This document shows positions 2,986-63,915 of a DNA stretch of 64,000 nt, piece after piece. A program made the translations under genes and the position numbers. Each line of letters begins with the position of its first letter. Within the stretch, counting starts at the first letter, position 1. The notes beneath the pieces were generated by a model. That model did not search any database, had not been told where the DNA came from, and worked only from the letters and a program-made list of their open reading frames with translations. The DNA comes from Candidatus Eiseniibacteriota bacterium (GTDB lineage: Bacteria; Eisenbacteria; RBG-16-71-46). The stretch is from assembly GCA_035712145.1 (NCBI GenBank), contig DASTBI010000115.1:3827-67826 (forward strand), written 5' to 3'.

Positions 2986-4353
2986 TCACAGGTTGCCCCA
3001 GGACTCCGGTCTGAGCCCCAGCTTGCGCATCTTCTTGTAGAGGTGGCTGCGTTCGAGTCCCAGCCGGCTCGCGGCCTGAGTCATGTTCCCCTCCGTGGAC
3101 TCGAGCGCCGCTTCGATCTCCTTCTTCTCGAACTCCTGGACCGCCTCGGCCAGGCGCCGGCCGCCCGCCGGAACGGGCGTGCGATCGCTCGAAGGCGCCG
3201 TGGCGTGCAGCACGCCGCGAATCTGCTCGGCCCCGATCGTCGATCCGGGGTGGAGCATGAGCAGGCGCTCGACCACGTTGTGGAGCTCGCGCACGTTGCC
3301 GGGGAATGAATAGCGGGCGAGCTGCTCGATCGCCGGCGGCGCGAATCGCGGAACGCGAATGCCGGTCTCCTTCGCGAAGCGGGCCGCGAAATGCTCGACC
3401 AGCGGCGCGATGTCTTCGGCCCGCTCGCGAAGCGGCGGCACGAGGATGGTGAGACCCGCCAGCCGGTAGTAGAGATCCTCGCGGAACTGCTCGGCCGCGA
3501 TCCGCTGGCGAAGATCGCGATTGGTGGCCGCGACCACCGCGACGTCGACCGCGATCAAGCGGTTGCCGCCGACGCGTGTCACTTCCTTCTCCTGGAGGAC
3601 CCGCAGCAGCTTGGCCTGTCCGCGCAGGCTCAGGTCGGCCACCTCGTCGAGGAAGAGGGTCCCTCCGTGAGCCTCCTCGAACCGGCCGCGGCGTGCCTGG
3701 GTCGCGCCCGTGAAGGCGCCCCGCTCGTGGCCGAACATCTCCGACTCGAACAGATCCTCGGGGATCGCCGAGCAGTTCACCGCGACGAATGGACGCGCCC
3801 GCCTCGGACCCGCGGCATGGATGGCTCGCGCCACCAGCTCCTTGCCGGTCCCGTGCTCGCCTTCGATCAGCACGCGGGCGACCGGGTTCCGCCCGGCCGC
3901 CTCGATCATCTGCTCCACGCTTCGCAGTGCTGAGGAGCGGCCGACGAGCGGGAGCGCCCACGGGCGGCGGAGCCGTCGATTCTCGGCCTCGAGATCCTGG
4001 GTCGCGGTGGCATTGCGAAGCACCACCAGCAGCCGCTCGAGCGAGATCGGTTTCTCCATGAAGTCGAAGGCGCCGCGTCGCGTGGCTTCGACCGCCACAT
4101 CGATGGTCGCGTGGCCCGACATCACCACCACCACGGTCTCGGGCGTGTGAGCCGCGATCTCGGCCAGCAGATCGAGCCCGCTGCCGTCCGGCAGCAGCAC
4201 GTCGAGCAGCACCACGTCGCGCGATTCGCGCAGCCGCTCGCGCGCTTCCGCGAGCGTGCCGGCGACATCGGCGTGATAGCCCTCGCGCCCGAGGGCCCCC
4301 TGCAGGCTGCTCCGGATGTTGGCTTCATCATCCACGATCAGAAGCGATGACAT
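2986..4353 (-). CDS. sigma-54-dependent response regulator, NtrC/NtrX family (receiver + AAA+ sigma54-activator + HTH)
   Basis: Receiver domain (LIVDDE...D...LLDVLLPDGSG). AAA+ motifs GEHGTGKE, the GAFTGA loop (ERGAFTGA), and the Arg finger are present. The C-terminal Fis-type HTH reads MTQAASRLGLERSHLYKKMRKLGL. Confidence 0.9.
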   Translation of the reverse strand: MSSLLIVDDEANIRSSLQGALGREGYHADVAGTLAEARERLRESRDVVLLDVLLPDGSGLDLLAEIAAHTPETVVVVMSGHATIDVAVEATRRGAFDFMEKPISLERLLVVLRNATATQDLEAENRRLRRPWALPLVGRSSALRSVEQMIEAAGRNPVARVLIEGEHGTGKELVARAIHAAGPRRARPFVAVNCSAIPEDLFESEMFGHERGAFTGATQARRGRFEEAHGGTLFLDEVADLSLRGQAKLLRVLQEKEVTRVGGNRLIAVDVAVVAATNRDLRQRIAAEQFREDLYYRLAGLTILVPPLRERAEDIAPLVEHFAARFAKETGIRVPRFAPPAIEQLARYSFPGNVRELHNVVERLLMLHPGSTIGAEQIRGVLHATAPSSDRTPVPAGGRRLAEAVQEFEKKEIEAALESTEGNMTQAASRLGLERSHLYKKMRKLGLRPESWGNL

Positions 4354-36249: not shown

Positions 36250-36435
36250 CATCACGGTCGTCACTTCGACGACGACCGTAACGCCGTCGTCCGTTGGGTC
36301 GCTGAACGGGTGCCCGACTCGCCCGGTCGCGTTTCGGACTCGCGTCGCAACCGCTGACACGGGGCGCCGTCGCGCCGTTCAACGCCGATCAGCCGGTCAG
36401 AAGACGACTGGCACGCCACTCGCCGATGGCCCGGC

Positions 36436-38820
36436 ATGGGTGGGTGCACCGCCGTATGGATCGCCGCGACCGTGTGGGTCGGGCTCGCCGTCGGCCGTGA
36501 GCTGCCGCCGTTCTGGATCTCGGGCTTCGCCGTGGCCGCGGTCGGACTCGCGTGGCTCGCGCGCCGCGCGCCCGACCGGCTCGGCACGCTGGCGCTCGTG
36601 CTCGCCGTGCTGTGCGGCTCGCTCGCGCGTGGCGGCGCGGCCGGCGCCGTTCCTGGCGCCGCATCGGGCCGGCTGAGCCCGGAGCCGCCCGCCACGTGGA
36701 TGTCCGCTCGCGTCGTAGACCATCCTGCCCGCGAGTCCGGAGACGTGGTGGCCATCCTCGAGACCACCCGCGCGTGCGAGCTGCTGCCGCGCGGCGCGCG
36801 CGTGCGCCTGCGCCTGCCGGCAGGAACCCGCGCCGAGTGGGGGGACACGCTGCGCGTGCTGGCACGGGTGGAGGCCCCGTCGCTCGCGCGGGTCCCCGGC
36901 GTTCCCTCGCAGCGCGAGGCCTCATGGGCGCAGGGCATCGTCGCGCGCGGGCGAGGCCTCTGGGTCGAGGACGGCGCTTCGCACACGCTCGCGCGCGCCA
37001 CGATCGTGCGCTGGCGCCGCCATCTCGAGACCTGCTTCACCCGCGAGCTGTCTCCCGACGCGCGCGAGATCGTCACCCCGCTCGTGACCGGCGATCGCAC
37101 CGGACTCGATCCCGATCTTGGCGCGGTGTTCCGATCCTCCGGCCTCGTGCACCTGCTCGCGCTCTCCGGCCTGCACGTCGTATGGATGGCGGGCGTCGCG
37201 CGGGGCATCACCGGAGCGCTCGGGGGCGGCCTGCGCGCCCGCGCGTGGACCGGCGCGGCGTGCGCCCTCTTCTATGTCGCGATCGCCGGGCCTCTTCCAT
37301 CGCTCGCACGAGCCGCTGCGACCGAGGCGCTGGCCGCCGTCGCCAGTCTGCGCGGCCGCCTTCTCGATCCCTTGCAGGCGCTCGCGCTCGCCACGATCGT
37401 GCTGCTCGCGGCGACGCCGTCGTGGGCCGCCGATCTCGGCTTCCAGCTCTCGTGCGCGGCGACGCTCGGGCTCACGACGCTCGCGCGCCGCGCGGGAGAG
37501 TGGCTCGAGCGCAAACCCACCATCGGCGCGTCGACGCTGAAGTTGTTCGTGCCCACCGCGGCGGCGCAGGTGACCGCGCTGCCCATCGTGCTCGATCGCT
37601 TCCACGCGCTGCCATGGACGGCGCTCGGCTCGAACCTGGTGGCGGTGCCGGTGTGCGATCTGCTGATGGCCTCGGCCTGGCTCGGCGCCGGGCTCGAGGC
37701 GCTCATTCCCGGCGCCGGGCGATGGTGCTTCGCCGCCTGCGAGCCGCTCAGCCGCGTGCTGATCGGCGTCGCGCAGGCCGGCGCCGCCGCACCTCGCGCG
37801 CTGTGGGCGACTGGCCATTCGTTCGGGCCTCCCTTCCTGGCTGGACTTGGCGCCGCGCTTTTCGTGATCGCGTGCCTCGACGCACGCGATCTCGTGCACG
37901 CGCGCCTTCCGGCCTCGCGCACGCGCGTCGCACTCTCGTGGATGGGGCCGCTCGCGCTCCTGCTCGCGATCGTTCTCGGCGCCAGTGCGCCGGCCATGCG
38001 TCCTCCACCGGGACGCTGGTGGCTGGTGGTGCTCGATGTGGGACAGGGGGACGCGCTGGCGATCGGCGGCGCCAACGGCTGGCGATTGGTGGATTGCGGG
38101 CCGCGGTCGCCGGGCTACGACGCCGGCGCCGGAGCGGTCGTTCCGTTCCTCCACTGGGCCGCGGTGCGGCGTCTCGATGACGTCATTCTCACGCACGAGC
38201 ATGGCGACCACATCGGCGGTGTCACGGCCGTGCGGCGCGCCGTGCCGGTGGTGCGATGGTGGCGGGGAGGATCCCCGCGCCGACGCGGCACGCCGGACGA
38301 AGCGCAAGACGTGCACGCCGGCGACACGCTCGGCCTCGAGCCGATGCTCGTGGCGCGCTGGCCGGCCGCCGGATTCGCCTCGCGGGATCTCAACGCCGGG
38401 TCGCTGACGCTCGAAGCGGGGGAGGGCGAGGGCCGCGCGCTGCTCGCGGCGGACATCGACAGCACGATCGAAGACCGTGTGATCGTGGGTGGCCGCTGCG
38501 CCGTGCTCAAGGTCGCCCATCACGGCGCAGCAGCGTCCTCTGGACGACGTTTCCTGGAACGCGTGCGCCCGCAATGGGCCATCGTGTCGTGCGGCGCCCG
38601 TAATCCGTTTGGACATCCCGACGTGCGAACGCTCGCGCGACTCGCGACGTGCGGCGCGCAGGTGCGGCGCACCGACCAGGTCGGGACGGTGTGGCTCGAG
38701 CTGGGACCCGACGGCGTGACGGAGATCGACTGGCGGCGCGACGCGGTCCGCGAGACGCACCGCGCGCCTTCGCCGGTCGTGACGGGCGGTGCACTTGCCC
38801 ATGCTCCAGCCCGCTGCTAG
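36436..38820 (+). CDS. comEC: DNA internalization-related competence protein ComEC/Rec2 (competence domain + metallo-beta-lactamase domain)
   Basis: Multi-TM N-terminal region. Competence signature GLVHLLALSGLHVVWMAG. C-terminal MBL motif LTHEHGDHIGG with WWLVVLDVGQGDALAI. Confidence 0.85.
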   Translation: MGGCTAVWIAATVWVGLAVGRELPPFWISGFAVAAVGLAWLARRAPDRLGTLALVLAVLCGSLARGGAAGAVPGAASGRLSPEPPATWMSARVVDHPARESGDVVAILETTRACELLPRGARVRLRLPAGTRAEWGDTLRVLARVEAPSLARVPGVPSQREASWAQGIVARGRGLWVEDGASHTLARATIVRWRRHLETCFTRELSPDAREIVTPLVTGDRTGLDPDLGAVFRSSGLVHLLALSGLHVVWMAGVARGITGALGGGLRARAWTGAACALFYVAIAGPLPSLARAAATEALAAVASLRGRLLDPLQALALATIVLLAATPSWAADLGFQLSCAATLGLTTLARRAGEWLERKPTIGASTLKLFVPTAAAQVTALPIVLDRFHALPWTALGSNLVAVPVCDLLMASAWLGAGLEALIPGAGRWCFAACEPLSRVLIGVAQAGAAAPRALWATGHSFGPPFLAGLGAALFVIACLDARDLVHARLPASRTRVALSWMGPLALLLAIVLGASAPAMRPPPGRWWLVVLDVGQGDALAIGGANGWRLVDCGPRSPGYDAGAGAVVPFLHWAAVRRLDDVILTHEHGDHIGGVTAVRRAVPVVRWWRGGSPRRRGTPDEAQDVHAGDTLGLEPMLVARWPAAGFASRDLNAGSLTLEAGEGEGRALLAADIDSTIEDRVIVGGRCAVLKVAHHGAAASSGRRFLERVRPQWAIVSCGARNPFGHPDVRTLARLATCGAQVRRTDQVGTVWLELGPDGVTEIDWRRDAVRETHRAPSPVVTGGALAHAPARC

Positions 38821-49818: not shown

Positions 49819-52356
<2,538 letters not shown>

Positions 52357-53223
52357 GGCGCTCGAGCTGTTCCTGATCGAGCTGGCGGCGCGCCGCGCCT
52401 CACGCCACACCGTCGAGGCTTATCGGCGCGACGTCACCCGCGTGCTCGACCTCGCCGCCGGAACCGGAAAGGACTTGCCGCCCTCGGGATGGAATCGCGA
52501 GCTGCTCGAGCGCGCGATGCGGGATCTGCATCGCACGGCGCATGCGGCCTCGAGCGCGGCCCGCGCCCTCGCCGCGTGGCGCAGCTTTTCGCGGTTCTGC
52601 GTGCGCCGCGGAATGCTTTCCGACGATCCCGCGCGCAAGCTCCCGTTCCCGCGCCGGCCGCGGCGCCTGCCTCGAACGCTGCCGGAGCGCGACCTGACGC
52701 GCGCGCTCGACGGGCTCTCGGCGGAGGATCCGGCGAGCGTCCGCGACCGGGCGCTGATCGAGATGACGTACTCCTCGGGCCTGCGCCTCTCCGAGCTCGT
52801 CGGCCTCAATCACGGCGATGTCGACGCCGGCGCCGGACTGCTCCGCATCCGGGGAAAGGGACGTCGCGAGCGCATCGTCCCGGTAGGAAAGGCGGCGCTC
52901 GAGTCGCTGCGCCGTTATCTGGGCGAGCCGGTCACGCGGGCGGGTCGCGACGCACCCGTGTTCCTCAACGCCCGCGGCGGGAGGCTCTCGGGGCGCACGG
53001 TGCAGCGCGTGGTGCGCCACCGGCTGGGCCAGGTCGCGGGCGGCCTCGGCGTCACGCCGCACGCGCTCCGGCACTCCTTCGCCAGCCACCTGCTGGATCG
53101 CGGCGCCGACTTGCGCGCGATCCAGGAGCTGCTCGGCCACCGCTCGCTCTCCAGCACCCAGATCTACACCCACGTCTCGCGGAGCCGGCTGCGTCGCGCC
53201 TACGAACAGGCCCACCCGCGCGC

Positions 53224-54261
53224 ATGACCGGCGTCCGGCGACTCGCGCTCGCCGTGGGGGTGTGCTTCGTGGCGATGGGCTGCGCCAAGAAAGCGCCTCC
53301 GAGCGGAGGGCCGCCCGACATCGATCCGCCACGGCTGATCGCCTCGCATCCCGACTCGGGCGCCGCCTCGGTGGCTCTCGATGCGCCTCTCTCGATGACC
53401 TTCAGCGAAGGCATGGAGCCGCGCTCGACCACCGAGGCGATCGCGCTGTCACCACCGGTCGAGATCCGGCGCTTCCGCTGGTCGGGCAGGACCGTCACCG
53501 CGGTGCTCGCCGAGCCTCTGAAGAAGAGCCAGACCTACACCTTGTTCATCGGCTTCGGCGCGCGCGATCGGCACGGCAACATGATCGACCGCGGGCGCGC
53601 TCTCGTGTTCACCACCGGCGATTCGTTTCCCCGGGGCCTCATCGAGGGCCAGCTCGAGGCGAAGGGGTTCGCGGCGGGGAACGCGTATCTGTGGTGCTAC
53701 GAGGCGTCGCGGGCGCCCGACAGCACGGCGCGCGATTTCGACGCCATCGGCCTCGTCGATCCCGATGGGCAGTTCCGCATCGCGGGACTCGACGTGCCGA
53801 AGCGCTACCGCGTCTGGACATTCGCCGACATCAACAACAATCGCTCGTTCGAGCCCGCGACCGATCTGCTGGCGCCGATCGATACGGTGCTGTCGCTGAC
53901 CACGGAGCATCCCACGGCGAGCGGCATCCAGCTGCGGGTCACGAACCCGCGCGCGCCCGCTCGCGTCAAAGGCACTGTGCTAGACTCGCTCGTCGTGCGC
54001 GACGGCGATCTGCTGGTGGTCGCCGTGGCCGACACCGACACGACGCGGCGCGTGTTGGCGTCGACGAACGACCGTCTGAGCTTCGACCTCCAGCTGGAGC
54101 CGGGCTCCTGGACGGTGCGGGCGTTCCGGGACGCGGATCGGAATCGCATGTGGGATCGCGCACGGGAGTCGTCGAGCGATCCGTTGCCGGTGCGCGCCGA
54201 TCCGGCGGCGGAGATCGTCGACGTGGTGCTGGTGCTCAGACCGCCGCGCGAAGGCCGGTAA
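53224..54261 (+). CDS. lipoprotein with Ig-like (SbsA/Big-type) domain
   Basis: MTGVRRLALAVGVCFVAMGC lipobox. The Ig-like segment reads PPRLIASHPDSGAASVALDAPLSMTFSEGM. ATGA overlap with xerC. Confidence 0.6.
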   Translation: MTGVRRLALAVGVCFVAMGCAKKAPPSGGPPDIDPPRLIASHPDSGAASVALDAPLSMTFSEGMEPRSTTEAIALSPPVEIRRFRWSGRTVTAVLAEPLKKSQTYTLFIGFGARDRHGNMIDRGRALVFTTGDSFPRGLIEGQLEAKGFAAGNAYLWCYEASRAPDSTARDFDAIGLVDPDGQFRIAGLDVPKRYRVWTFADINNNRSFEPATDLLAPIDTVLSLTTEHPTASGIQLRVTNPRAPARVKGTVLDSLVVRDGDLLVVAVADTDTTRRVLASTNDRLSFDLQLEPGSWTVRAFRDADRNRMWDRARESSSDPLPVRADPAAEIVDVVLVLRPPREGR

Positions 54262-56799: not shown

Positions 56800-59646
56800 A
56801 TGAGAAACGCGCGCCAGGCGCTGGTTTCACTGACCTCCGCCTTCCTGCTTGCCCTGGTCGCTTACCCCGCCGCCGCCCAGTCATTCGGCAAGAACAAAGT
56901 GCAGTACGAGCCCCTGGATTGGGCGGTCCTCGAGACGCCTCATCTGCGGCTTCATTTCTACGCCGAGGAGGAGAGTCTCGCGCGGTACCTCGCCGCGCAC
57001 GCCGAGTCGGTGTGCGTCGAATACGATCGGCGCTTCCGCATCCAGTTCAAGCGCCCGATCGCGGTGCTCTTCTACTCGACCCATCATCTCTTCCAGCAGA
57101 CCAATGCCACGCCCGGCCTGATCTCCGAGTCGGTGGGGGGGATCACCGAGCTGATCAAGGGCCGCGTGCTCCTTCCGCACAACGGATCGTGGGCGCGCCT
57201 GGCGTGGGTCACTCGCCACGAGCTGGCGCACGCCTACATGCTCGAGAAGCTGGCGCGGGTGATGCGCGAGAACAAGCGCAGCCACGGTTACCTGCCGCCG
57301 CTGTGGTTCATCGAGGGGCTGGCGGAATTCTGCGGCACCACCTGGGACGCTGACGCCGAGGGACTGCTGCGCGACGCGGTCCTCACCGGGCGCGCGCCGA
57401 TGCTCACCCGCAGCGAAGAGATCGCCGGCACGGTGCTCATGTACAAGGAAGGCCAGTCCTTCCTGCTCTATCTCGGCGAGCGCTTCGGTCCCGACAAGGT
57501 CTTCGACCTGATGGACAACTGGTACCGCGCCGACGACTTCGAGACCGTCTTCCGGCTCACTTACGGCGAGAAGCTCGTCAACGTCGATCGAGACTGGCAC
57601 GAGTGGATCAAGCGTCGCTACTACCCGGAAGTCGCTTCGCTGCGCACCGCGACCGAGCAGGGCACGCGTCTCACACAACGCGGTCCATACAATCTCGGGC
57701 CGCGCGTGCTGCCATCGGCCTCACCCAACGACACGCTCGTTCGCTTCTGCTATTTCATGGCGCGCGAGAGCGGCGTGGAGCTGATGCTCAGCGAGCCGGG
57801 GAAGAAGGGGGAGCGCAAGGAGCGGCGGCTGCTGCGCGCGGGTCAATCGGCGTCGTACGAGTCCTTCCATCTCTTCCAGAATCGCCCGGACGCCTCGAAG
57901 TCCGGCCTCATCGCCCTTTCCGCGAAGCACGGAGGACGTGACGCCCTTTACCTCGTCGATTCCAGGAAGGGCCGCGTGATTCAGCGGATGGAGTTCCCGC
58001 ACCTGGTGGCGATTCTCGATCCCAGCATCGTCCCCGGAGACACATCGGTCGTGTTCTCCGCGCAGGACTATGCCGGCCGCTCGGACCTCTATCGCGCGAC
58101 ATGGAGCAAGGGCCGCGTCAAGCTCGAGCGGCTGACGCAGGACTTCTTCGACGACGTCGAGCCGGACGTTTCTCCCGATGGCCGCTGGGTGGCGTTCTCG
58201 TCCGATCGCGGCGGCATCGAGCACCACGCGATCTATCGCCTCTCCCTTTCGGGAGGCGTGCCGGAGCGGGTCAGCCAGCCCCCGGATGGCGATGATCGGC
58301 AGCCGGTCTATTCACCGGATGGCAAGTGGCTCGCCTTCCGCTCCACTCGGGGCGGGACCAGCGACCTCTACGTGCGCCCGGCTGAGCCGAGCTTCGAAGC
58401 GCGCCGCGTCACCCGCATGGCGGGCCCCGTCTACGACCCCGACTGGCTGGCGGGAGGCCGTGGCCTGCTCTACACCGGCCAGGAGCGCGTGGAGTTCCAG
58501 AGCTACCTGACCCACTTCGATCCCGAGACCCTGCAGGTCGAGACCGAGACCGACATGGAGGCGCGGCCCGTGGCCTCGCTCGTCAGCGACGCGGTGATCG
58601 CCGGCGGGCTCGGCACGCCCAAGGAGAGCGGCGTCTACAACGGACCCAAGCACGAGTACGAACGCCGCCTCAGCCTCGACCTGGTGCAGAACGCGTTCGC
58701 CGTCGATCCCGCGCTCGGCGCGGGTGGCGGAGGGCAGATCGCGATCAGCGACGTGCTCGGCAACGAAAAGATCCACCTCTATCTGTCCAACGACTCCGAG
58801 CGCTTCGGAACCAGCTTCTGGGATGGCTTCGAAGGCGGCGTGACCTACATCAACCAGAGCCGGCGCCTGAACTACGGCGTCGGACTGTTCCGCCTCACCC
58901 AGATGTACGATCCCGAGCTCGACCTGGTGCGGCGCGAGCGCCGCGTGGGCGTGCTCGGCCTGGCGATGTATCCCTTCAACCGTTTCACCCGGCTGGAGGG
59001 ATCGATGCTGGTACGCCACGCGAGCGACCACCGTCTCCGCAACGGCACATCGAAGGACGTCGATCTCATCTCTCACTATCTGTCCCTGGTGCACGATAAC
59101 AGCGGTTGGTCGATGCTCGGGCCGAGCACCGGCACGCGCTTCCTCATCTCGGGCGGGTTCACCCGGGACATGACTTCGGGCGCCGGAGACTTCGCCAGCA
59201 TGGTGGTGGAGGCCCGCCACTACGAGCGACCGCTGCCGGTCCTGGTCTCCGCGACTCGTGTCCAGGGTCAGGCGAGCTTCGGCAATGATGCCCAGCGCTA
59301 CTACCTGGGCGGGCTGGTCTCCCTGCGAGGCTACGATCGTCGCACGATTTCCGGCACCAAGACGCTGCTCGTCCAGCAGGAATTCCGGCTCCCGGTGGTG
59401 CGCGGCCTGACCTTCGCCCTGCCTCGGGCATGGCAGTTCCCGACCATCAGCACCGCGCTCTTCGCGGACTACGCCATGGCGATCGACGGGAACTTCGTCG
59501 ATCGGCGCGGAGCGGTCGGCGCGGGAGCTTTCATCGGCGGAGGGTATTATCCGGTCATCCGATGGAACTTCACCTGGGTCACCCCCGACTTCCAGACGTT
59601 CTCGCACCGGCCGCGGACCACCTTCCTGATCGGCTACAACTTCTAG
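56800..59646 (+). CDS. outer-membrane multidomain protein: HExxH peptidase-MA-like domain + TolB/PD40 beta-propeller repeats + C-terminal beta-barrel
   Basis: ATG 56800 with GGAAGGAGG SD. Signal peptide. HELAH...EGLAE zinc-peptidase motif. PD40 repeats (VSPDGRWVAFSSDRGG, YSPDGKWLAFRSTRGG). Long C-terminal region with alternating beta-strand pattern ending ...TTFLIGYNF (terminal Phe). Confidence 0.65.
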   Translation: MRNARQALVSLTSAFLLALVAYPAAAQSFGKNKVQYEPLDWAVLETPHLRLHFYAEEESLARYLAAHAESVCVEYDRRFRIQFKRPIAVLFYSTHHLFQQTNATPGLISESVGGITELIKGRVLLPHNGSWARLAWVTRHELAHAYMLEKLARVMRENKRSHGYLPPLWFIEGLAEFCGTTWDADAEGLLRDAVLTGRAPMLTRSEEIAGTVLMYKEGQSFLLYLGERFGPDKVFDLMDNWYRADDFETVFRLTYGEKLVNVDRDWHEWIKRRYYPEVASLRTATEQGTRLTQRGPYNLGPRVLPSASPNDTLVRFCYFMARESGVELMLSEPGKKGERKERRLLRAGQSASYESFHLFQNRPDASKSGLIALSAKHGGRDALYLVDSRKGRVIQRMEFPHLVAILDPSIVPGDTSVVFSAQDYAGRSDLYRATWSKGRVKLERLTQDFFDDVEPDVSPDGRWVAFSSDRGGIEHHAIYRLSLSGGVPERVSQPPDGDDRQPVYSPDGKWLAFRSTRGGTSDLYVRPAEPSFEARRVTRMAGPVYDPDWLAGGRGLLYTGQERVEFQSYLTHFDPETLQVETETDMEARPVASLVSDAVIAGGLGTPKESGVYNGPKHEYERRLSLDLVQNAFAVDPALGAGGGGQIAISDVLGNEKIHLYLSNDSERFGTSFWDGFEGGVTYINQSRRLNYGVGLFRLTQMYDPELDLVRRERRVGVLGLAMYPFNRFTRLEGSMLVRHASDHRLRNGTSKDVDLISHYLSLVHDNSGWSMLGPSTGTRFLISGGFTRDMTSGAGDFASMVVEARHYERPLPVLVSATRVQGQASFGNDAQRYYLGGLVSLRGYDRRTISGTKTLLVQQEFRLPVVRGLTFALPRAWQFPTISTALFADYAMAIDGNFVDRRGAVGAGAFIGGGYYPVIRWNFTWVTPDFQTFSHRPRTTFLIGYNF

Positions 59647-59660
59647 CAGCGGTCGGCAGG

Positions 59661-62207
59661 GTGGAGGCATTCGGGCTAAAGGGCCAGTGCCTCCGCGCCT
59701 CGGTGATCTTCCTCGTCCTGGGACTGGCCTGGTCGCCGGCGGCTTTCTCGCGCGACGCCGAGATCGACCAGCAGGTCCGGACGCTCAAGGCCATCCAGCA
59801 GGAGATGACCCTCGGCGGCGCCGGGCGAAAGATCGAAGCGATGCGCGCGCTGGCGAGCCAGCGGCGCGCCCGGAAGCTCAAAGGTCAGCGCAGCCGTCCT
59901 CCTCGTGACCATCAGGAGGCCCTCGGCGCCCAGGGCACGTACGGTCCTGCGGTGGGCCTGCGCTCTCGAACCGCGGAGCAGCCGGCGAATCGATTGATCA
60001 CCACGTCGGCGCAGCCCTTCACCACGCAATCCGAGGTTTCGGTGGCGGGAACGCGGGCCGCCATGGTGGCGGCGTGGAACGACGCGGGGTCCCATCAGAA
60101 CCAGTTCAATGCCATCAGCTTCGCCACCTCCACGGATGGCGGACAGGTGTGGCGCGAGGGCGGGCCGTTACCGGTGGGCGGCCAGGTGCTGGTGTGGGTC
60201 TCCGACCCCGTGGTGGCGGTGGACGCGCGACGAGGCGATTTCTACGTCGCGGGGCTGGTGATCGCGACGGGCGCCTCCAGCGGCGTGGCCGTGGCGCGTG
60301 GACGCTTCGGTGAGAGCGGTTTTCAGTGGGAGGCGCCACGGGTGGCCCGGGCCGTCCGGGACTCGTTCCCTGACAAGCCGTGGATGGTGGCGGACTCGCT
60401 CACCGGAAACCTCTATCTCAGCTACACCACCTTCTACCGTCGCGACGGAAAGTCCACCGACCGGATCGAGTTCCAGCGCTCCGAGGATGGAGGACTGACC
60501 TGGAGCTCCGTGGCGAGGCTCTCGCCGGAAAGCGAGGAAGGCCTGGTCCAGGGATCGCGCCCGGCGGTGGGTCCCTTGGGCGAGCTGCACGTGGTGTGGA
60601 AGACGATCGACACCACCGCCGCCGCCGGAGGCGAGGACGCCATGCGGATCCGCAGCTCCTGGGACGGCGGGCGCACGTTTTCGGAGACCGCCACGGTCGC
60701 GCGGCTCTACACGAACTTCTGCAGCGGTCCGCCGGGGTTCGACCGCGGGTTCGGCCTGGGATTCCCGTCGATCGCCGTCGATCGCAGCGCCGGACCGCAT
60801 CGCGGTCGAATCCACGTCGGTTGGGAAGAATCCCTCAATTTCTACGACGACCGCCTGGCCGCGGCCGGCGGGGTGCAGGAAGAAGCCGAGCCCAACAACC
60901 GGCACCGCGACGCCACGCCGTTCACCGTCGGCGACGTGCTGCGCGGCACGATCAGTCCGGCGCATGACGTCGACTGGTTCCGCTTCCACGGCGAGGCGGG
61001 ACGCACCGTGGTGCTCTACGTCGACTCGCTGGATGCACATCTCGACGTGGCGCTCCGGCTGTGGTGCGGGGACGGAAGCACCCGGCTCGCGTACAGCACG
61101 TCGCTCAACGTCCGCCAGCGGATCGTGCTCTTCACGGTGACGACTCCGGGCGATTATTACGTCTCGATCGCGCCGCACGATGATTCGACCGGCGTCTATC
61201 GCCTGGCGTCGGGATGGGCCGAGCGCGGCTCCGAGCGCGGGCGAGACCAGCGCGACATCTTCGTCGCCCACTCGGACGATGGAATCACGTGGAGCACGCC
61301 CGCGCTCGCGGGAGACGCGCCGGCGGGATTCGACGACTGGCTTCCGGAACTGGCGGTAGGCACCAACGGAACGCCTTACGTGGCGTGGTACGACTTCCGG
61401 GAGGGCGATCCCTCCGGTTGCGGCGCCGCCTCGCACATCCGCCTGTCGCGCTCCGACGACGGTGGCGACCACTGGGTCCCGGTCGGACTCGTCACCGACT
61501 ACCCCACGCTGTGGTCTGGAGTCTTCAGCAATCAGTCGCCCAACATGGGGGACTACATCGGCCTGCTCGCCGGCCAGGATGGCATCGTGCCGGCGTGGGC
61601 GGATGGCCGGGACGCGAATCCCGATGTGTACGCCGCCTTCTGGCCGACGGCTGAAGCGGCGCGCGACATCGCGCCTCTGGCCAGCGAGCCTTCATCGGGC
61701 GGCGTGGTCCTGCGCTGGCAGGCGCCGCCGATTCCCGTGACCGGCACGGTGTGGCGACGCGTGTCGGGTGGAAGCGCTCGGGCGCTGGCCGATATCGACC
61801 CTGATCCCCAGGGTGTGATGAGCTATCTCGACGTCGACCTCGATCCCGGATTTCGCTACCACTACGAGCTCGCGGTGCGCTCCAGCGAAGGCGAGGTCCG
61901 CGTCGGCCAGCAGTCGATCGATGCGCCGGGCGCTTCGGCGGCGGCGCTCGCCCTCGAGCGTGTGGCGCCGAACCCGAGCCATGGCGTGTTCCGGATCGCG
62001 TTCAGTCGTCCGCATCTTGCGCCCGCTCGGCTCGACGTGCTCGACGTAGGCGGCCGCCGCGTGATGGGCGTGGATCTCGGCGAGGAGTATGGCACTCGCG
62101 GCGTCCTCGACCTGGGACGACAGACGCGGCTCGATCCTGGTCTCTACCTGGTGCGGTTCGTCCAGGCCGGAGAGTCGGTCAGCGTGAAGGCTGTCGTGGT
62201 CCGGTAG
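59661..62207 (+). CDS. BNR/sialidase-like repeat secreted protein with T9SS C-terminal sorting domain
   Basis: A GTG at 59661 gives a signal peptide. BNR-type S-x-D-x-G-x-T-W motifs (STDGGQVW, SEDGGLTWS, SWDGGRTF, SDDGITWS, SDDGGDHW). C-terminal tail ...LDPGLYLVRFVQAGESVSVKAVVVR. Confidence 0.7.
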   Translation: MEAFGLKGQCLRASVIFLVLGLAWSPAAFSRDAEIDQQVRTLKAIQQEMTLGGAGRKIEAMRALASQRRARKLKGQRSRPPRDHQEALGAQGTYGPAVGLRSRTAEQPANRLITTSAQPFTTQSEVSVAGTRAAMVAAWNDAGSHQNQFNAISFATSTDGGQVWREGGPLPVGGQVLVWVSDPVVAVDARRGDFYVAGLVIATGASSGVAVARGRFGESGFQWEAPRVARAVRDSFPDKPWMVADSLTGNLYLSYTTFYRRDGKSTDRIEFQRSEDGGLTWSSVARLSPESEEGLVQGSRPAVGPLGELHVVWKTIDTTAAAGGEDAMRIRSSWDGGRTFSETATVARLYTNFCSGPPGFDRGFGLGFPSIAVDRSAGPHRGRIHVGWEESLNFYDDRLAAAGGVQEEAEPNNRHRDATPFTVGDVLRGTISPAHDVDWFRFHGEAGRTVVLYVDSLDAHLDVALRLWCGDGSTRLAYSTSLNVRQRIVLFTVTTPGDYYVSIAPHDDSTGVYRLASGWAERGSERGRDQRDIFVAHSDDGITWSTPALAGDAPAGFDDWLPELAVGTNGTPYVAWYDFREGDPSGCGAASHIRLSRSDDGGDHWVPVGLVTDYPTLWSGVFSNQSPNMGDYIGLLAGQDGIVPAWADGRDANPDVYAAFWPTAEAARDIAPLASEPSSGGVVLRWQAPPIPVTGTVWRRVSGGSARALADIDPDPQGVMSYLDVDLDPGFRYHYELAVRSSEGEVRVGQQSIDAPGASAAALALERVAPNPSHGVFRIAFSRPHLAPARLDVLDVGGRRVMGVDLGEEYGTRGVLDLGRQTRLDPGLYLVRFVQAGESVSVKAVVVR

Positions 62208-62213
62208 CTGCGA

Positions 62214-62371
62214 GAGCGACACCCCCGCGGCCAGCCGCAGGCATGTCGAAGGGACCCACAGACGCCGTAGCCATGGATGGTGGAGGCGTCGAGGACCGAG
62301 CGAGGCGGAGCAGGATGCGGAGCCGACGCGTGCCCGAGACATGCCTGCGGCTGGCCGCGGGGGTGTCGCTC
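62214..62371. repeat. perfect 34-bp inverted repeat (gagcgacacccccgcggccagccgcaggcatgtc / revcomp) separated by a 90-nt spacer, in a convergent intergenic region
   Basis: Arms at 62214..62247 and 62338..62371 are exact reverse complements. This explains the mirrored peptides TCLRLAAGVSL in track ORFs on both strands. The total 158 bp is in the MITE / long-terminator size range. Confidence 0.8.
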
Positions 62372-62383
62372 GGGTGCGCTAGA

Positions 62384-63625
62384 TTAGCGCCCTGGATCGA
62401 CGGCGACGCCGAGCGGCTGCGCGAAGGCCGAGAGGCGGCTCATGATGGTTCCCGTGCTCGAGATGCGCACGACCTGTCCTTCCTCCTCCAGGACCGCCCA
62501 CACCTGGCCGGTGCCCTGATCGACCGCCACGTCGCTCACCGAGTTGAGGCCCGAGACGCGGAACTGGACGGTGCCGCTGCGATCCAGCGCCACCAGCTGA
62601 TCCGCGATGGCATCGGCGACCCAGATGCGTCCACGATGCGCGTCGACCGCGACTCCGACCGGACCCTGGAAACCCTGGAGGGTGGCCTCGATGAACGTGA
62701 AGGAGGGAGGCACTCGAGTGACCGTGCGTGACTGAAACGAAGTCACCCACGCCCGCCTCGTGACGCTGTCGATCGCGACCCGGCTGGGCCGGTTCACCGT
62801 GATCTCCGCGAGCGGACTGTGATCCGGAGCGTAGCGGCGCAGCCGGTTGCCGTCGCGCTCGCACACCACCACCGAGCGGTCGAAGACGTCGACGGCCACT
62901 CCGATCGGGAACTGGAGCGGCTCGATCGCGCCGCCGATCGGCCGGCCGAAGGGATCGAACGACCACAGCCTGCCCGGCTCGTCGCACACCCATGCCATCC
63001 CCTGGAGCGGGTCGACCGTGAGAGTCGAGGGATAACCCAGGCCGGGAACGTTGATCGTGACGCCGGTCGCGGGATTCAGGATCGCGACGCGGCCGGCGAG
63101 TCGATCGGATACCCAGACGAAGCCGGTGACCGAATCGACGGCCACCGCGACCGGACCGCTGAAGCCGCCAAACGTTCTGACCACGCGGCGGCCATCGGGC
63201 GTGATGCGGTAGAGCGCTTGACGTTTGTTATCCACGACCCAGCCGCGCGCGCGGCCGGGTGTCGCCACGTCGGACGCGGGAGGCTGGCGGTCCACGCCCT
63301 CCTCGTTCACCAGGTAGAGACGATACCGATGCTCGAGACCGTTCAGCGTGCCGAGGTCCGCGTAGCCCGCCGACGCGGGCGGCAGGAGCCCGCTGATCAG
63401 TTGATAAGGGTTCGATCCCGTCTGACGGTAGAGGTGGAAACCCAGGATCCCGCTCGTGCCGGTGACCGGGGACCAGCTCAGATCGACGCGACCGTCGCCG
63501 GCGATGGCCATGAAGCCGGCGGGACCTCCGCCGGTGTTCGGATTGTCGGGATCGAGTGGATTCGTGTGCTCGCGCTGGCTGCACCCGGCCAGCAGCAGCG
63601 CTAGAAGGAGTAGGCGAGAGCGCAT
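62384..63625 (-). CDS. beta-propeller (NHL/YVTN-like) lipoprotein
   Basis: MRSRLLLLALLLAGC lipobox. Repeated blade motifs (GPVAVAVD, FPIGVAVD, GPVGVAVD, QPLGVAVD) every ~45 aa. Confidence 0.65.
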   Translation of the reverse strand: MRSRLLLLALLLAGCSQREHTNPLDPDNPNTGGGPAGFMAIAGDGRVDLSWSPVTGTSGILGFHLYRQTGSNPYQLISGLLPPASAGYADLGTLNGLEHRYRLYLVNEEGVDRQPPASDVATPGRARGWVVDNKRQALYRITPDGRRVVRTFGGFSGPVAVAVDSVTGFVWVSDRLAGRVAILNPATGVTINVPGLGYPSTLTVDPLQGMAWVCDEPGRLWSFDPFGRPIGGAIEPLQFPIGVAVDVFDRSVVVCERDGNRLRRYAPDHSPLAEITVNRPSRVAIDSVTRRAWVTSFQSRTVTRVPPSFTFIEATLQGFQGPVGVAVDAHRGRIWVADAIADQLVALDRSGTVQFRVSGLNSVSDVAVDQGTGQVWAVLEEEGQVVRISSTGTIMSRLSAFAQPLGVAVDPGR

Positions 63626-63915
63626 CGGTCGGGGCCGAGCAACAGGGAGACCCGTGCCGTCGGCTGCGGTCTCAGGAAACGCAGATAGAGTCCGCCGACG
63701 ATCAGCAGCTCACCCGTGATCAGGCTGGCGCTCGAGACACGATCGTAGAGCACGGTCCGGTCGTAGAGCTCGGTGATCTGCTCTGGATCGGTCGCCACCA
63801 GGTACTCATCGTACGTGCTGTTGGCGCGGTCGCGGAGCACGAAGGACGTGGCCACCAGGCCGACGCCCGAGGCCAGCGCCAGGTAGGCGCCGAAGTGGCT
63901 CTGCTTCTTGGGCAT
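63601..63915 (-). CDS. hypothetical small protein
   Basis: 104-aa ORF with one hydrophobic helix. Its start overlaps the downstream lipoprotein gene. No recognisable domain. Confidence 0.3.
   Translation of the reverse strand: MPKKQSHFGAYLALASGVGLVATSFVLRDRANSTYDEYLVATDPEQITELYDRTVLYDRVSSASLITGELLIVGGLYLRFLRPQPTARVSLLLGPDRCALAYSF

What the first reader, a model, noticed from the sequence alone, without database searches (positions are those of the whole stretch)
62214..62371. Perfect 34-bp inverted repeat with 90-nt loop between convergent genes
Two exact reverse-complement 34-mers (GC-rich) flank a 90-nt spacer. The element sits precisely between the stop codons of a BNR-repeat T9SS protein (62207) and a convergent lipoprotein (62384). 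Such a long perfect stem is far beyond an ordinary intrinsic terminator. The 158-bp size and perfect terminal inverted repeats are MITE-like. It could also be a bidirectional terminator or RNA-processing element, or a recombination or protein-binding site. Nothing else in the window resembles it.
Basis: seen in the sequence. Interest (0 to 1): 0.6.

Follow-up and report, generated by a model that had tools for sequence, protein, structure and literature searches.

The report
Orphan palindromic insertion between convergent genes
A real 158-bp hairpin-forming DNA segment with perfect 34-bp inverted ends was inserted, in this Eisenbacteria lineage only, between two convergent genes. It looks like a small non-coding mobile element, but no second copy could be found anywhere, so it remains an ordinary-looking orphan.

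Summary
62214-62247 and 62338-62371 are exact reverse-complement 34-mers separated by 90 nt. They are the strongest inverted repeat and the lowest-energy fold in the 64-kb window (RNA fold z = -10.7). The window comes from a 'Candidatus Eisenbacteria' MAG.

The main new result is an empty-site comparison. Six orthologous lineages (lipoprotein 62-77% aa identity, 11 contigs) keep the same convergent gene pair, but with only 1-22 nt between the stop codons. The window has 176 nt. The element is therefore a lineage-specific insertion of about 165-175 bp that left both genes intact.

A 10-nt look-alike of the BNR gene's 3' end (GGTGCGCTAG versus GGTCCGGTAG) sits where the ancestral stop codon should be. 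This suggests, but does not prove, a target duplication.

Every search for a second copy or a parent transposon was negative: the window, about 220 kb of fetched loci, GTDB genomes, JGI metagenomes, IMG/VR, plasmids, phages, 5.8 billion proteins and Rfam. The rest of the source genome could not be searched.

There is no U-tract, promoter, coding capacity or nearby transposase.

Best reading: an orphan MITE/REPIN-like insertion that by default gives both mRNAs a 3' hairpin. Interest is low to moderate.

The parts
62214..62247 (.). Left arm of the inverted repeat, 34 nt, exact.
   Evidence: On its own it can also form a small imperfect hairpin (-12.8 kcal/mol).
62248..62337 (.). 90-nt core between the arms. 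It is partly self-complementary (13 of 25 pairs next to the arms) and folds into two small hairpins at a three-way junction.
   Evidence: No promoter-like site, no tRNA, no Rfam family at gathering score. No GTT, AAC, TTTT or AAAA in the element.
62338..62371 (.). Right arm of the inverted repeat, 34 nt, the exact reverse complement of the left arm.
   Evidence: Its outer 30 nt are present at the end of the independent Logan contig L001.
62208..62213 (.). 6-nt spacer CTGCGA between the BNR stop codon and the left arm. It may belong to the inserted DNA.
62198..62207 (+). Functional 3' end of the BNR/T9SS-tail gene, GGTCCGGTAG (..V R stop). Candidate left copy of a 10-bp target duplication.
62373..62382 (+). 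GGTGCGCTAG, a look-alike of the BNR 3' end. It matches at 8 of 10 positions, and both differences are synonymous for V-R-stop. It lies 1 nt from the lipoprotein stop, where the BNR stop lies in ortholog L003. Probable relic of the ancestral BNR 3' end, or the right copy of the target duplication.
   Evidence: P(>=8/10 at a fixed place) = 7e-4, and P(>=5/7 given a stop codon) = 0.034. A generic local-alignment test is not significant (31% of random 20-mers score as well).
62376..62390 (.). Mini-palindrome GCGCTA-GAT-TAGCGC, formed by the relic Arg-stop and the lipoprotein Arg-stop. It is the ancestral junction, not part of the insert.
   Evidence: The orthologous junctions CGCTGA-c-TCAGCG (L003) and CGCTGA-ccg-TCAGCG (L026) appear.
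59661..62207 (+). Left flanking gene: a secreted BNR-like/PPC protein with a T9SS-type C-terminal tail. The longest ORF starts at 59430, but GTG 59661 (848 aa) fits the ortholog lengths of 823-852 aa. Its C-terminus ..VKAVVVR* is intact.
   Evidence: Ortholog lengths.
62384..63625 (-). Right flanking gene: a 413-aa lipoprotein with an NHL/SGL beta-propeller. Its C-terminus ..VAVDPGR* is intact.

Best explanation
The element is a lineage-specific insertion of a small, non-coding, palindromic element of the MITE/REPIN kind: two identical 34-bp inverted ends around a 90-bp core.

Inferred mechanism: a transposase encoded elsewhere, or since lost, recognised the inverted ends and inserted the element into the last ~10 bp of the BNR gene. 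That site lay 1-4 nt from the stop codon of the convergent lipoprotein gene. Duplication of the target (GGTSCGSTAG) regenerated the V-R-stop end of the BNR gene on the left and left a relic copy on the right, so neither gene was damaged and the insertion survived.

Today the element most likely acts only passively. Transcripts of either gene that read into it gain a very stable 3' hairpin. Without a U-tract this hairpin is more likely to block 3' exonucleases, and to slow read-through into the opposing gene, than to act as a classical intrinsic terminator.

Shown: the repeat itself, that it is an insertion, the intact flanking genes, and the absence of coding capacity. Inferred: transposase-mediated origin, the target duplication, and any RNA-level effect.
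For: (1) Filled versus empty site. Six orthologous lineages on 11 contigs from ENA, JGI, Logan and NCBI keep the order rpsT - small ORF - lipoprotein -> <- BNR/Por_Secre_tail gene. The spacers between their stop codons are 1, 22, 4, 18, 3 and 3 nt, against 176 nt in the window.

(2) Perfect 34-bp terminal inverted repeats with a sharp boundary to a poorly paired core. This TIR-plus-core architecture does not look like a uniformly decayed palindrome.

(3) Size 158-175 bp and no coding signal. None of the translated frames has a relative among 5.8e9 proteins.

(4) Very stable fold on both strands, a classic MITE property (Delihas 2011, PMC3184786).

(5) A 10-nt look-alike of the BNR 3' end sits at the ancestral stop position.

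(6) The repeat is present in an independent k=31 assembly.
Against: No second copy and no parent IS were found:
- the 64-kb window;
- about 220 kb of fetched loci, including about 58 kb of relatives;
- GTDB species genomes;
- JGI metagenomes;
- IMG/VR;
- PLSDB plasmids and INPHARED phages.

The window has no transposase or RAYT gene.

The candidate target duplication is imperfect (8/10) and does not abut the repeats: it is 6 nt away on one side and 1 nt on the other. It is not significant in a generic test.

If that duplication is real and has diverged at 2 of 10 positions, then 34 of 34 perfect pairs is not what neutral decay predicts (P about 1e-3 at d = 0.1). That points to selection or homogenisation of the arms, or to a false duplication.

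The rest of the source genome could not be searched, so copy number is unknown.
Confidence: 0.5

Rival explanations
1. A selected structural element. It is a U-tract-less bidirectional terminator, or a 3'-end stabiliser or insulator, that separates two convergent genes which otherwise abut. Whatever its origin, its perfect stem is maintained because the hairpin is useful on both strands.
For: It lies exactly between convergent stops and folds equally well on both strands. All 34 pairs are Watson-Crick, so the stem works in both transcripts. If the 8/10 flanking duplication is real, the arms are better preserved than neutral decay allows. The orthologs have no spacer at all, so read-through collision is a plausible problem that a hairpin would relieve.
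Against: There is no T-run after the stem on either strand. A 34-bp stem with a 90-nt loop is far outside the geometry of known intrinsic terminators. Six related lineages manage without it. With a single sequence there is no covariation to test, and no expression data are available.
Confidence: 0.2
2. A palindrome with no transposon origin. A short piece of foreign or filler DNA was captured at a double-strand break in the tiny intergenic gap, then made palindromic by fold-back priming or template switching, or by quasi-palindrome correction. This would create two identical arms at once.
For: The arms are perfect while the core is only weakly paired. No perfect target duplication abuts the arms. 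No family member exists anywhere that was searched.
Against: No source sequence for arm or core was found in the window or its flanks. The orthologs show that neither arm is ancestral local sequence. The mechanism leaves no specific signature that could be tested here.
Confidence: 0.15
3. An invertible segment (inverton) or other recombinase or protein target. The 34-bp repeats would be the crossover sites for a site-specific recombinase that flips the 90-bp core, for example to direct an antisense promoter at one gene or the other.
For: Inverted repeats flanking a short segment are the defining geometry of invertons. A tyrosine recombinase gene lies at 52319-53227.
Against: That recombinase is a XerC/D-type housekeeping gene next to topA, 9 kb away. 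No sigma-70-like promoter was found in the core. No invertase gene is adjacent. Only one orientation is available.
Confidence: 0.05
4. An assembly artefact of the MAG, that is, a chimeric or fold-back join.
For: The source is a short-read metagenome-assembled genome, and only one sample carries it.
Against: The join connects the two genes that are neighbours in all orthologs. The core is not palindromic, and neither the core nor the arms copy flanking sequence. An independent k=31 assembly shows the lipoprotein flank running 30 nt into the arm and breaking exactly where a true inverted repeat should break it.
Confidence: 0.03

Closest known systems
Bacterial MITEs, such as Nezha (cyanobacteria), Chunjie (Geobacter) and Correia elements (Neisseria), as reviewed in Delihas 2011 (PMC3184786)
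   Same: Size under 200 bp. No transposase. Terminal inverted repeats around a core. RNA fold of the order of -100 to -130 kcal/mol. Intergenic location next to gene ends. A filled site here against empty sites in relatives, the same argument used for Nezha.
   Different: No second copy has been found. No IS with matching ends is known. No clean direct repeat abuts the ends. The 34/34 perfect repeat is longer and cleaner than in most families. It is G+C-rich, whereas many MITEs are A+T-rich.
REPINs (REP doublets forming hairpins, mobilised by RAYT transposases). This comparison rests on my own knowledge of Bertels & Rainey 2011 and was not checked in a paper here.
   Same: Two identical short G+C-rich units, each about 20-40 nt, in inverted orientation. 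They are separated by a less conserved spacer of tens of nt, and the whole folds into one long hairpin in extragenic space, often between convergent genes. Each arm can itself form a small imperfect hairpin.
   Different: REPINs occur in tens to hundreds of copies together with a RAYT gene. Here there is one copy in 64 kb and no Y1 transposase in the window. No conserved GTAG-type flank motif could be established.
Intrinsic (Rho-independent) terminators, including bidirectional ones between convergent genes
   Same: A G+C-rich hairpin immediately after two converging stop codons, symmetric on both strands.
   Different: No U-tract on either side. The stem is 34 bp with a 90-nt branched loop, against stems of roughly 5-15 bp and loops of 3-8 nt. 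It is absent from the orthologous junctions.

Membership tests
MITE | Small (generally under 200 bp, up to about 400 bp) and without a transposase gene. | tested here: met
   158 bp, or 165-175 bp with the extra inserted bases. No translated frame has a protein relative. Criterion taken from PMC3184786.
MITE | Terminal inverted repeats around a core. | tested here: met
   34/34 exact, with a sharp boundary to the core.
MITE | Flanking target-site duplication (direct repeats abutting the ends). | tested here: inconclusive
   No perfect repeat abuts the ends. In the 8-bp register the match is 5/8. A 10-nt 8/10 repeat (62198-62207 and 62373-62382) is offset by 6 and 1 nt. P = 7e-4 to 0.034 under the ortholog-guided hypothesis, but 0.31 in a generic test.
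MITE | Multiple dispersed copies in the genome. | tested here: inconclusive
   One copy in the 64-kb window and none in any public collection searched. The remainder of the source genome was not available, so copy number is unknown.
MITE | Ends shared with an autonomous IS. | tested here: not met
   No IS or other sequence with these ends was found in GTDB genomes, JGI metagenomes, IMG/VR, plasmids or phages. No transposase in the window. Sensitivity was limited to exact 17-24-mers, 8-codon seeds, or blastn in the smaller collections.
MITE | Evidence of past mobility: filled versus empty orthologous sites. | tested here: met
   Six ortholog lineages have 1-22 nt between the stops, against 176 nt here.
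REPIN / REP-RAYT system | Two inverted REP units plus a spacer, forming one hairpin. | tested here: met
   Two 34-nt units, a 90-nt spacer and a single long hairpin. Each arm folds weakly on its own.
REPIN / REP-RAYT system | High copy number and a cognate RAYT (Y1 transposase) gene in the genome. | not testable with these tools
   No other copy and no Y1_Tnp gene in the window.
Intrinsic terminator | A short G+C-rich stem-loop followed by a U-tract. | tested here: not met
   No T-run follows the stem on either strand: + strand GGGTGCGCTAGATTAG, - strand TCGCAGCTACCGGACC. The scan found no terminator-like site. No TTTT or AAAA in the element.
Integron attC site | Core sites RYYYAAC and GTTRRRY at the ends of an imperfect palindrome, within a cassette array next to an integron integrase. 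| tested here: not met
   The element contains no GTT or AAC at all. Its neighbours are conserved chromosomal genes.
Any Rfam RNA family | Score at or above the family's gathering threshold. | tested here: not met
   The only hit is MIR918, at 33.9 bits against a gathering score of 268. It is a generic long-hairpin match.

The most novel reading that the evidence does not exclude
The insertion is old. Its flanking duplication has already diverged at 2 of 10 positions, yet the two 34-bp arms have stayed identical. That would mean the arms are actively maintained, by selection or by intramolecular gene conversion. The element would then be a single-copy, lineage-specific functional device: a U-tract-less bidirectional insulator between two otherwise abutting convergent genes, or a DNA-level cruciform, recombinase or inversion site.
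Probability: 0.12. Interest if true: 0.5.

Novelty: new member of a known kind. Interest (0 to 1): 0.25.

Why it matters
If the element proves to be multi-copy, it would be the first small mobile repeat described for the uncultured phylum Eisenbacteria. It would also be a useful marker for strain typing and for explaining assembly breaks, since it already splits k=31 assemblies.

If it is single-copy but maintained, it would be a clean natural case of a hairpin recruited to separate two convergent genes whose stop codons otherwise nearly touch.

Either way it does not bear on a long-standing open question. As the evidence stands, it is a well-documented but ordinary intergenic insertion.

Tried and rejected
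(1) Exact 24-mer of the arm in GTDB genomes and JGI metagenomes: no hits.

(2) Two 17-mers in IMG/VR: 15 single hits, consistent with chance, and none with a second arm. One hit, L012 3267-3307, extends to 43 nt at 88%. It lies inside the C-terminus (DACPTCLRLAA) of a 743-aa ORF that I take, from its HPNCRC-type C-terminal motif and not from a family search, to be a Mu-F-like phage head protein. My rough estimate for the whole collection is E about 0.03-0.1, and INPHARED gave nothing, so I treat it as probably chance.

(3) The element translated as a pseudo-protein, so that the search for related loci would seed with six degenerate 8-codon patterns: 395-600 seed hits per collection, none confirmed, in viral, genome and metagenome collections. 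The figure of 600 may be a cap, so weak relatives could have been missed.

(5) Six-frame concatenated peptide against 5.8e9 proteins: nothing at E <= 10.

(6) blastn in 'distant' mode against plasmids and phages: only chance-level fragments.

(7) Rfam, tRNA, promoter and terminator scans: nothing.

(8) Look-ups of the BNR protein with four alternative start codons, to recover the Logan contig on the left side: not on record.

(9) Extending the inverted repeat outward, and perfect abutting direct repeats of 2-12 bp: none seen by reading the sequence.

(10) Replacement of the BNR 3' end by a paralogue: rejected, because the DNA upstream of the stop aligns with the orthologs at about the same level as the rest of the gene.

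(11) Long inverted repeats in about 58 kb of related contigs: none comparable.

Full report

Yes. Positions 62214-62247 (GAGCGACACCCCCGCGGCCAGCCGCAGGCATGTC) and 62338-62371 are exact reverse complements, with 90 nt between them. The next pair inward (G62248/A62337) is a mismatch, so the perfect stem is exactly 34 bp. Weaker complementarity continues inward: 59-nt arms are 80% complementary, which is 13 of 25 for the inner part.

No shuffle of the window produced a match. The region folds at -130.4 kcal/mol on the + strand and -122.3 on the - strand, with z-scores of -10.7 and -10.0. As DNA, z = -11.2.

Across the whole window the next-best inverted repeat is 34 nt at only 71%. The element is also the lowest-energy 160-nt stretch of 3192 tested. 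A blastn of the element against the window found no second copy or half-copy.

**2. Surroundings and source**

The element lies between the TAG stop (62205-62207) of a + strand ORF and the TAA stop (62384-62386) of a - strand ORF.

The + strand protein has weak BNR_2, PPC and Por_Secre_tail matches, all below Pfam cut-offs. The tail match runs to the last residues. Its start is more likely GTG 59661 (848 aa) than ATG 59430, judging from ortholog lengths of 823-852 aa.

The - strand protein has a lipobox (LLAGC) and an NHL/SGL beta-propeller. An identical protein is recorded at NCBI as a hypothetical protein (locus tag VFQ05_07045) of a 'Candidatus Eisenbacteria bacterium' MAG, on an 85-kb contig.

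The rest of the window is ordinary chromosome: secA, topA, a xerC/D-like recombinase, guaA, purC, tyrS/trpS, comEC, a pilB-like ATPase, cstA and others. It has no transposase and no Y1/RAYT gene.

**3. Is it an assembly artefact?**

This is unlikely. A Logan (k=31) contig from run SRR25158272 carries the lipoprotein gene and 12 nt of flank, then stops exactly 30 nt into the arm. That is what a de Bruijn graph does when it meets a true inverted repeat of at least 31 nt.

The two genes joined across the element are neighbours in every ortholog (see section 4). Neither the arms nor the core copy any flanking sequence.

**4. The key result: filled versus empty site**

Relatives of the lipoprotein at 77, 72, 70, 67, 65 and 62% amino-acid identity were traced to 11 contigs from ENA, JGI, Logan and NCBI. 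All keep the same local order: uvrC, rpsT, a small ORF overlapping the lipoprotein start, the lipoprotein, then the convergent BNR/Por_Secre_tail gene.

| Loci | Lipoprotein identity to the window | nt between the two stop codons |
|---|---|---|
| L002/L003 | 77% | 1 |
| L004 | 72% | 22 |
| L021/L022 | 70% | 18 |
| L005 | 67% | 4 |
| L023/L024 | 65% | 3 |
| L025-L027 | 62% | 3 |
| window | - | 176 |

The multiple alignment shows coding sequence aligning on both sides and a single block of about 170 nt present only in the window. Both C-termini are intact and identical in pattern to the orthologs (..VKAVVVR* and ..VAVDPGR*).

The element is therefore a lineage-specific insertion into a gap of a few nucleotides. 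This is shown, not inferred.

**5. The insertion site**

Read on the - strand, the window is: ...GGGCGC TAA T CTAGCGCACC C [158-bp element] TCGCAG CTACCGGACC ACGAC...

The first CTA lies 1 nt after the lipoprotein stop, exactly where the BNR stop lies in L003 (TGA C TCA GCG GAC). The 10 nt CTAGCGCACC resemble the orthologous BNR ends: TCAGCGCACC in L026, CTAGCGGATC in L005. They also match the window's functional BNR end CTACCGGACC at 8 of 10 positions, and both differences are synonymous for V-R-stop.

Significance depends on the test:
- At a fixed position, at least 8 of 10 matches has P = 7e-4 in this window.
- Given a stop codon, at least 5 of 7 matches has P = 0.034.
- In an unguided local-alignment test the similarity is not significant: 31% of random 20-mers score as well.

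I read this as a probable relic of the ancestral BNR 3' end, that is, a target duplication of about 10 bp that restored the gene. It is suggestive only. The repeat does not abut the arms (6 nt and 1 nt away), and no perfect abutting direct repeat of any length exists.

There is also a tension. If a real duplication has drifted at 2 of 10 positions, then 34 of 34 perfect pairs is not expected under neutral decay (about 1e-3 at d = 0.1). So either the duplication is spurious and the insertion is recent, or the arms are maintained.

**6. Is it a repeat family?**

Every test available was negative:
- No exact 24-mer of the arm in 185,579 GTDB species genomes or in the JGI metagenome collection.
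- Two 17-mers in IMG/VR gave only single, chance-level hits.
- blastn at 65-70% sensitivity against plasmids and phages gave nothing meaningful.
- Translating the element and using it as a pseudo-protein gave six degenerate 8-codon seeds with tblastn confirmation. Nothing was confirmed in viral, genome or metagenome collections.
- A concatenated six-frame peptide found nothing among 5.8e9 proteins.
- About 58 kb of related Eisenbacteria contigs contain no comparable inverted repeat and no similarity to the element.
- Rfam has no family for it. The MIR918 hit, 34 bits against a gathering score of 268, is a generic long-hairpin match.

These searches have limits. The source MAG itself was not retrievable: not even the window was found in the collections, and only the Logan fragment was available. 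Copy number in the source genome therefore remains unknown. The seed-based scans also need 17-24 conserved bases, and they may be capped at 600 candidates.

**7. How it most likely works**

The anatomy fits a non-autonomous transposable element as defined for bacteria in Delihas 2011 (PMC3184786). It has identical terminal inverted repeats with a sharp boundary, an unrelated core and no coding capacity. It is 158-175 bp long, folds very stably, and occupies a site that is empty in relatives. It fits equally well the REPIN architecture of two inverted REP units forming one hairpin; that comparison rests on my own knowledge.

I commit to this reading at about 50%: a transposase acting in trans inserted it into the last bases of the BNR gene. 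Only an insertion that regenerated the stop and spared the abutting lipoprotein gene could survive.

Its present effect is most likely passive. Both convergent mRNAs would acquire a very stable 3' hairpin. Neither side has a T-run, so it fails the definition of an intrinsic terminator. It could still block 3' exonucleases or impede read-through into the opposing gene. These functional steps are inference.

**8. Rivals**

| Rival | Confidence | Main argument |
|---|---|---|
| A selected, U-tract-less bidirectional hairpin | 0.2 | Favoured by the symmetric all-Watson-Crick stem and by the tension in section 5. Disfavoured because six related lineages lack it. |
| A non-transposon palindrome, made by DNA capture at a break plus fold-back or template-switch copying | 0.15 | Favoured by the absence of a family and of a clean duplication. 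No source sequence was found. |
| An inverton or recombinase site | 0.05 | The geometry fits. There is no promoter and no adjacent invertase; the only recombinase is a XerC/D-type gene 9 kb away. |
| An assembly artefact | 0.03 | See section 3. |

**9. Novelty and verdict**

The sequence has no known relatives, so it would define a new family if further copies exist. The kind of object, a small palindromic intergenic insertion, is well known.

Interest is low to moderate (0.25). The one unusual aspect is the combination of perfect 34-bp arms with an apparently diverged flanking duplication. If real, that would imply maintenance of the stem. I give that reading about 12%.

Noticed in passing
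window 62376-62390; L003 1921-1933; L026 about 3615-3629: The two convergent genes both end in Arg-stop, so their stop-to-stop junction is itself a small perfect palindrome. It reads CGCTGA-c-TCAGCG in L003, CGCTGA-ccg-TCAGCG in L026 and GCGCTA-gat-TAGCGC in the window. It may be coincidence, or a conserved mini-hairpin or target at the junction.
   Followed up: partly
L012 3267-3307 (IMG/VR contig IMGVR_UViG_3300014027_000079): 43 nt at 88% identity to the right arm plus 14 nt of the core. The match lies inside the C-terminal DACPTCLRLAA...HPNCRC motif of a 743-aa ORF that looks to me like a Mu-F-like phage head protein (not checked against a family library). The element read with a frameshift gives ADACP/TCLRLAAG. 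My rough estimate is E about 0.03-0.1 for the whole collection, so it is probably chance, but it is the only extended similarity found anywhere.
   Followed up: partly
L001 4779-4808 (Logan SRR25158272 contig end): The k=31 Logan contig stops exactly 30 nt into the arm. The inverted repeat therefore fragments de Bruijn assemblies, and contigs ending in GAGCGACACCCCCGCGGCCAGCCGCAGGCA would mark any other copies in that sample.
   Followed up: partly
window 59430-59661: The longest ORF of the BNR gene starts at ATG 59430 and overlaps the upstream PD40/peptidase gene (ends 59646) by 217 nt. GTG 59661 gives 848 aa with a signal-peptide-like start, matching ortholog lengths of 823-852 aa. None of the four start variants tried is on record as a called product.
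   Followed up: partly
window 63601-63915 (-) and L001 3235-3549, L002 3697-3960, L004 3577-3867, L005 9615-10025: A small ORF of 85-153 aa with no Pfam hit precedes the lipoprotein gene in every ortholog and overlaps its start by exactly 25 nt each time. This looks like a conserved, translationally coupled pair of unknown function.
   Followed up: no
window 36400-38800: The ComEC/competence gene region reaches 78-82% G+C. It gives the next-lowest folding energies in the window, with no discrete inverted repeat.
   Followed up: no
window 52319-53227: In the window, a XerC/D-type tyrosine recombinase lies directly after topA. In the orthologous contigs, a recombinase with the same Pfam domains sits next to uvrC, on the far side of the lipoprotein gene. 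If these are the same gene, local gene order differs between lineages.
   Followed up: no
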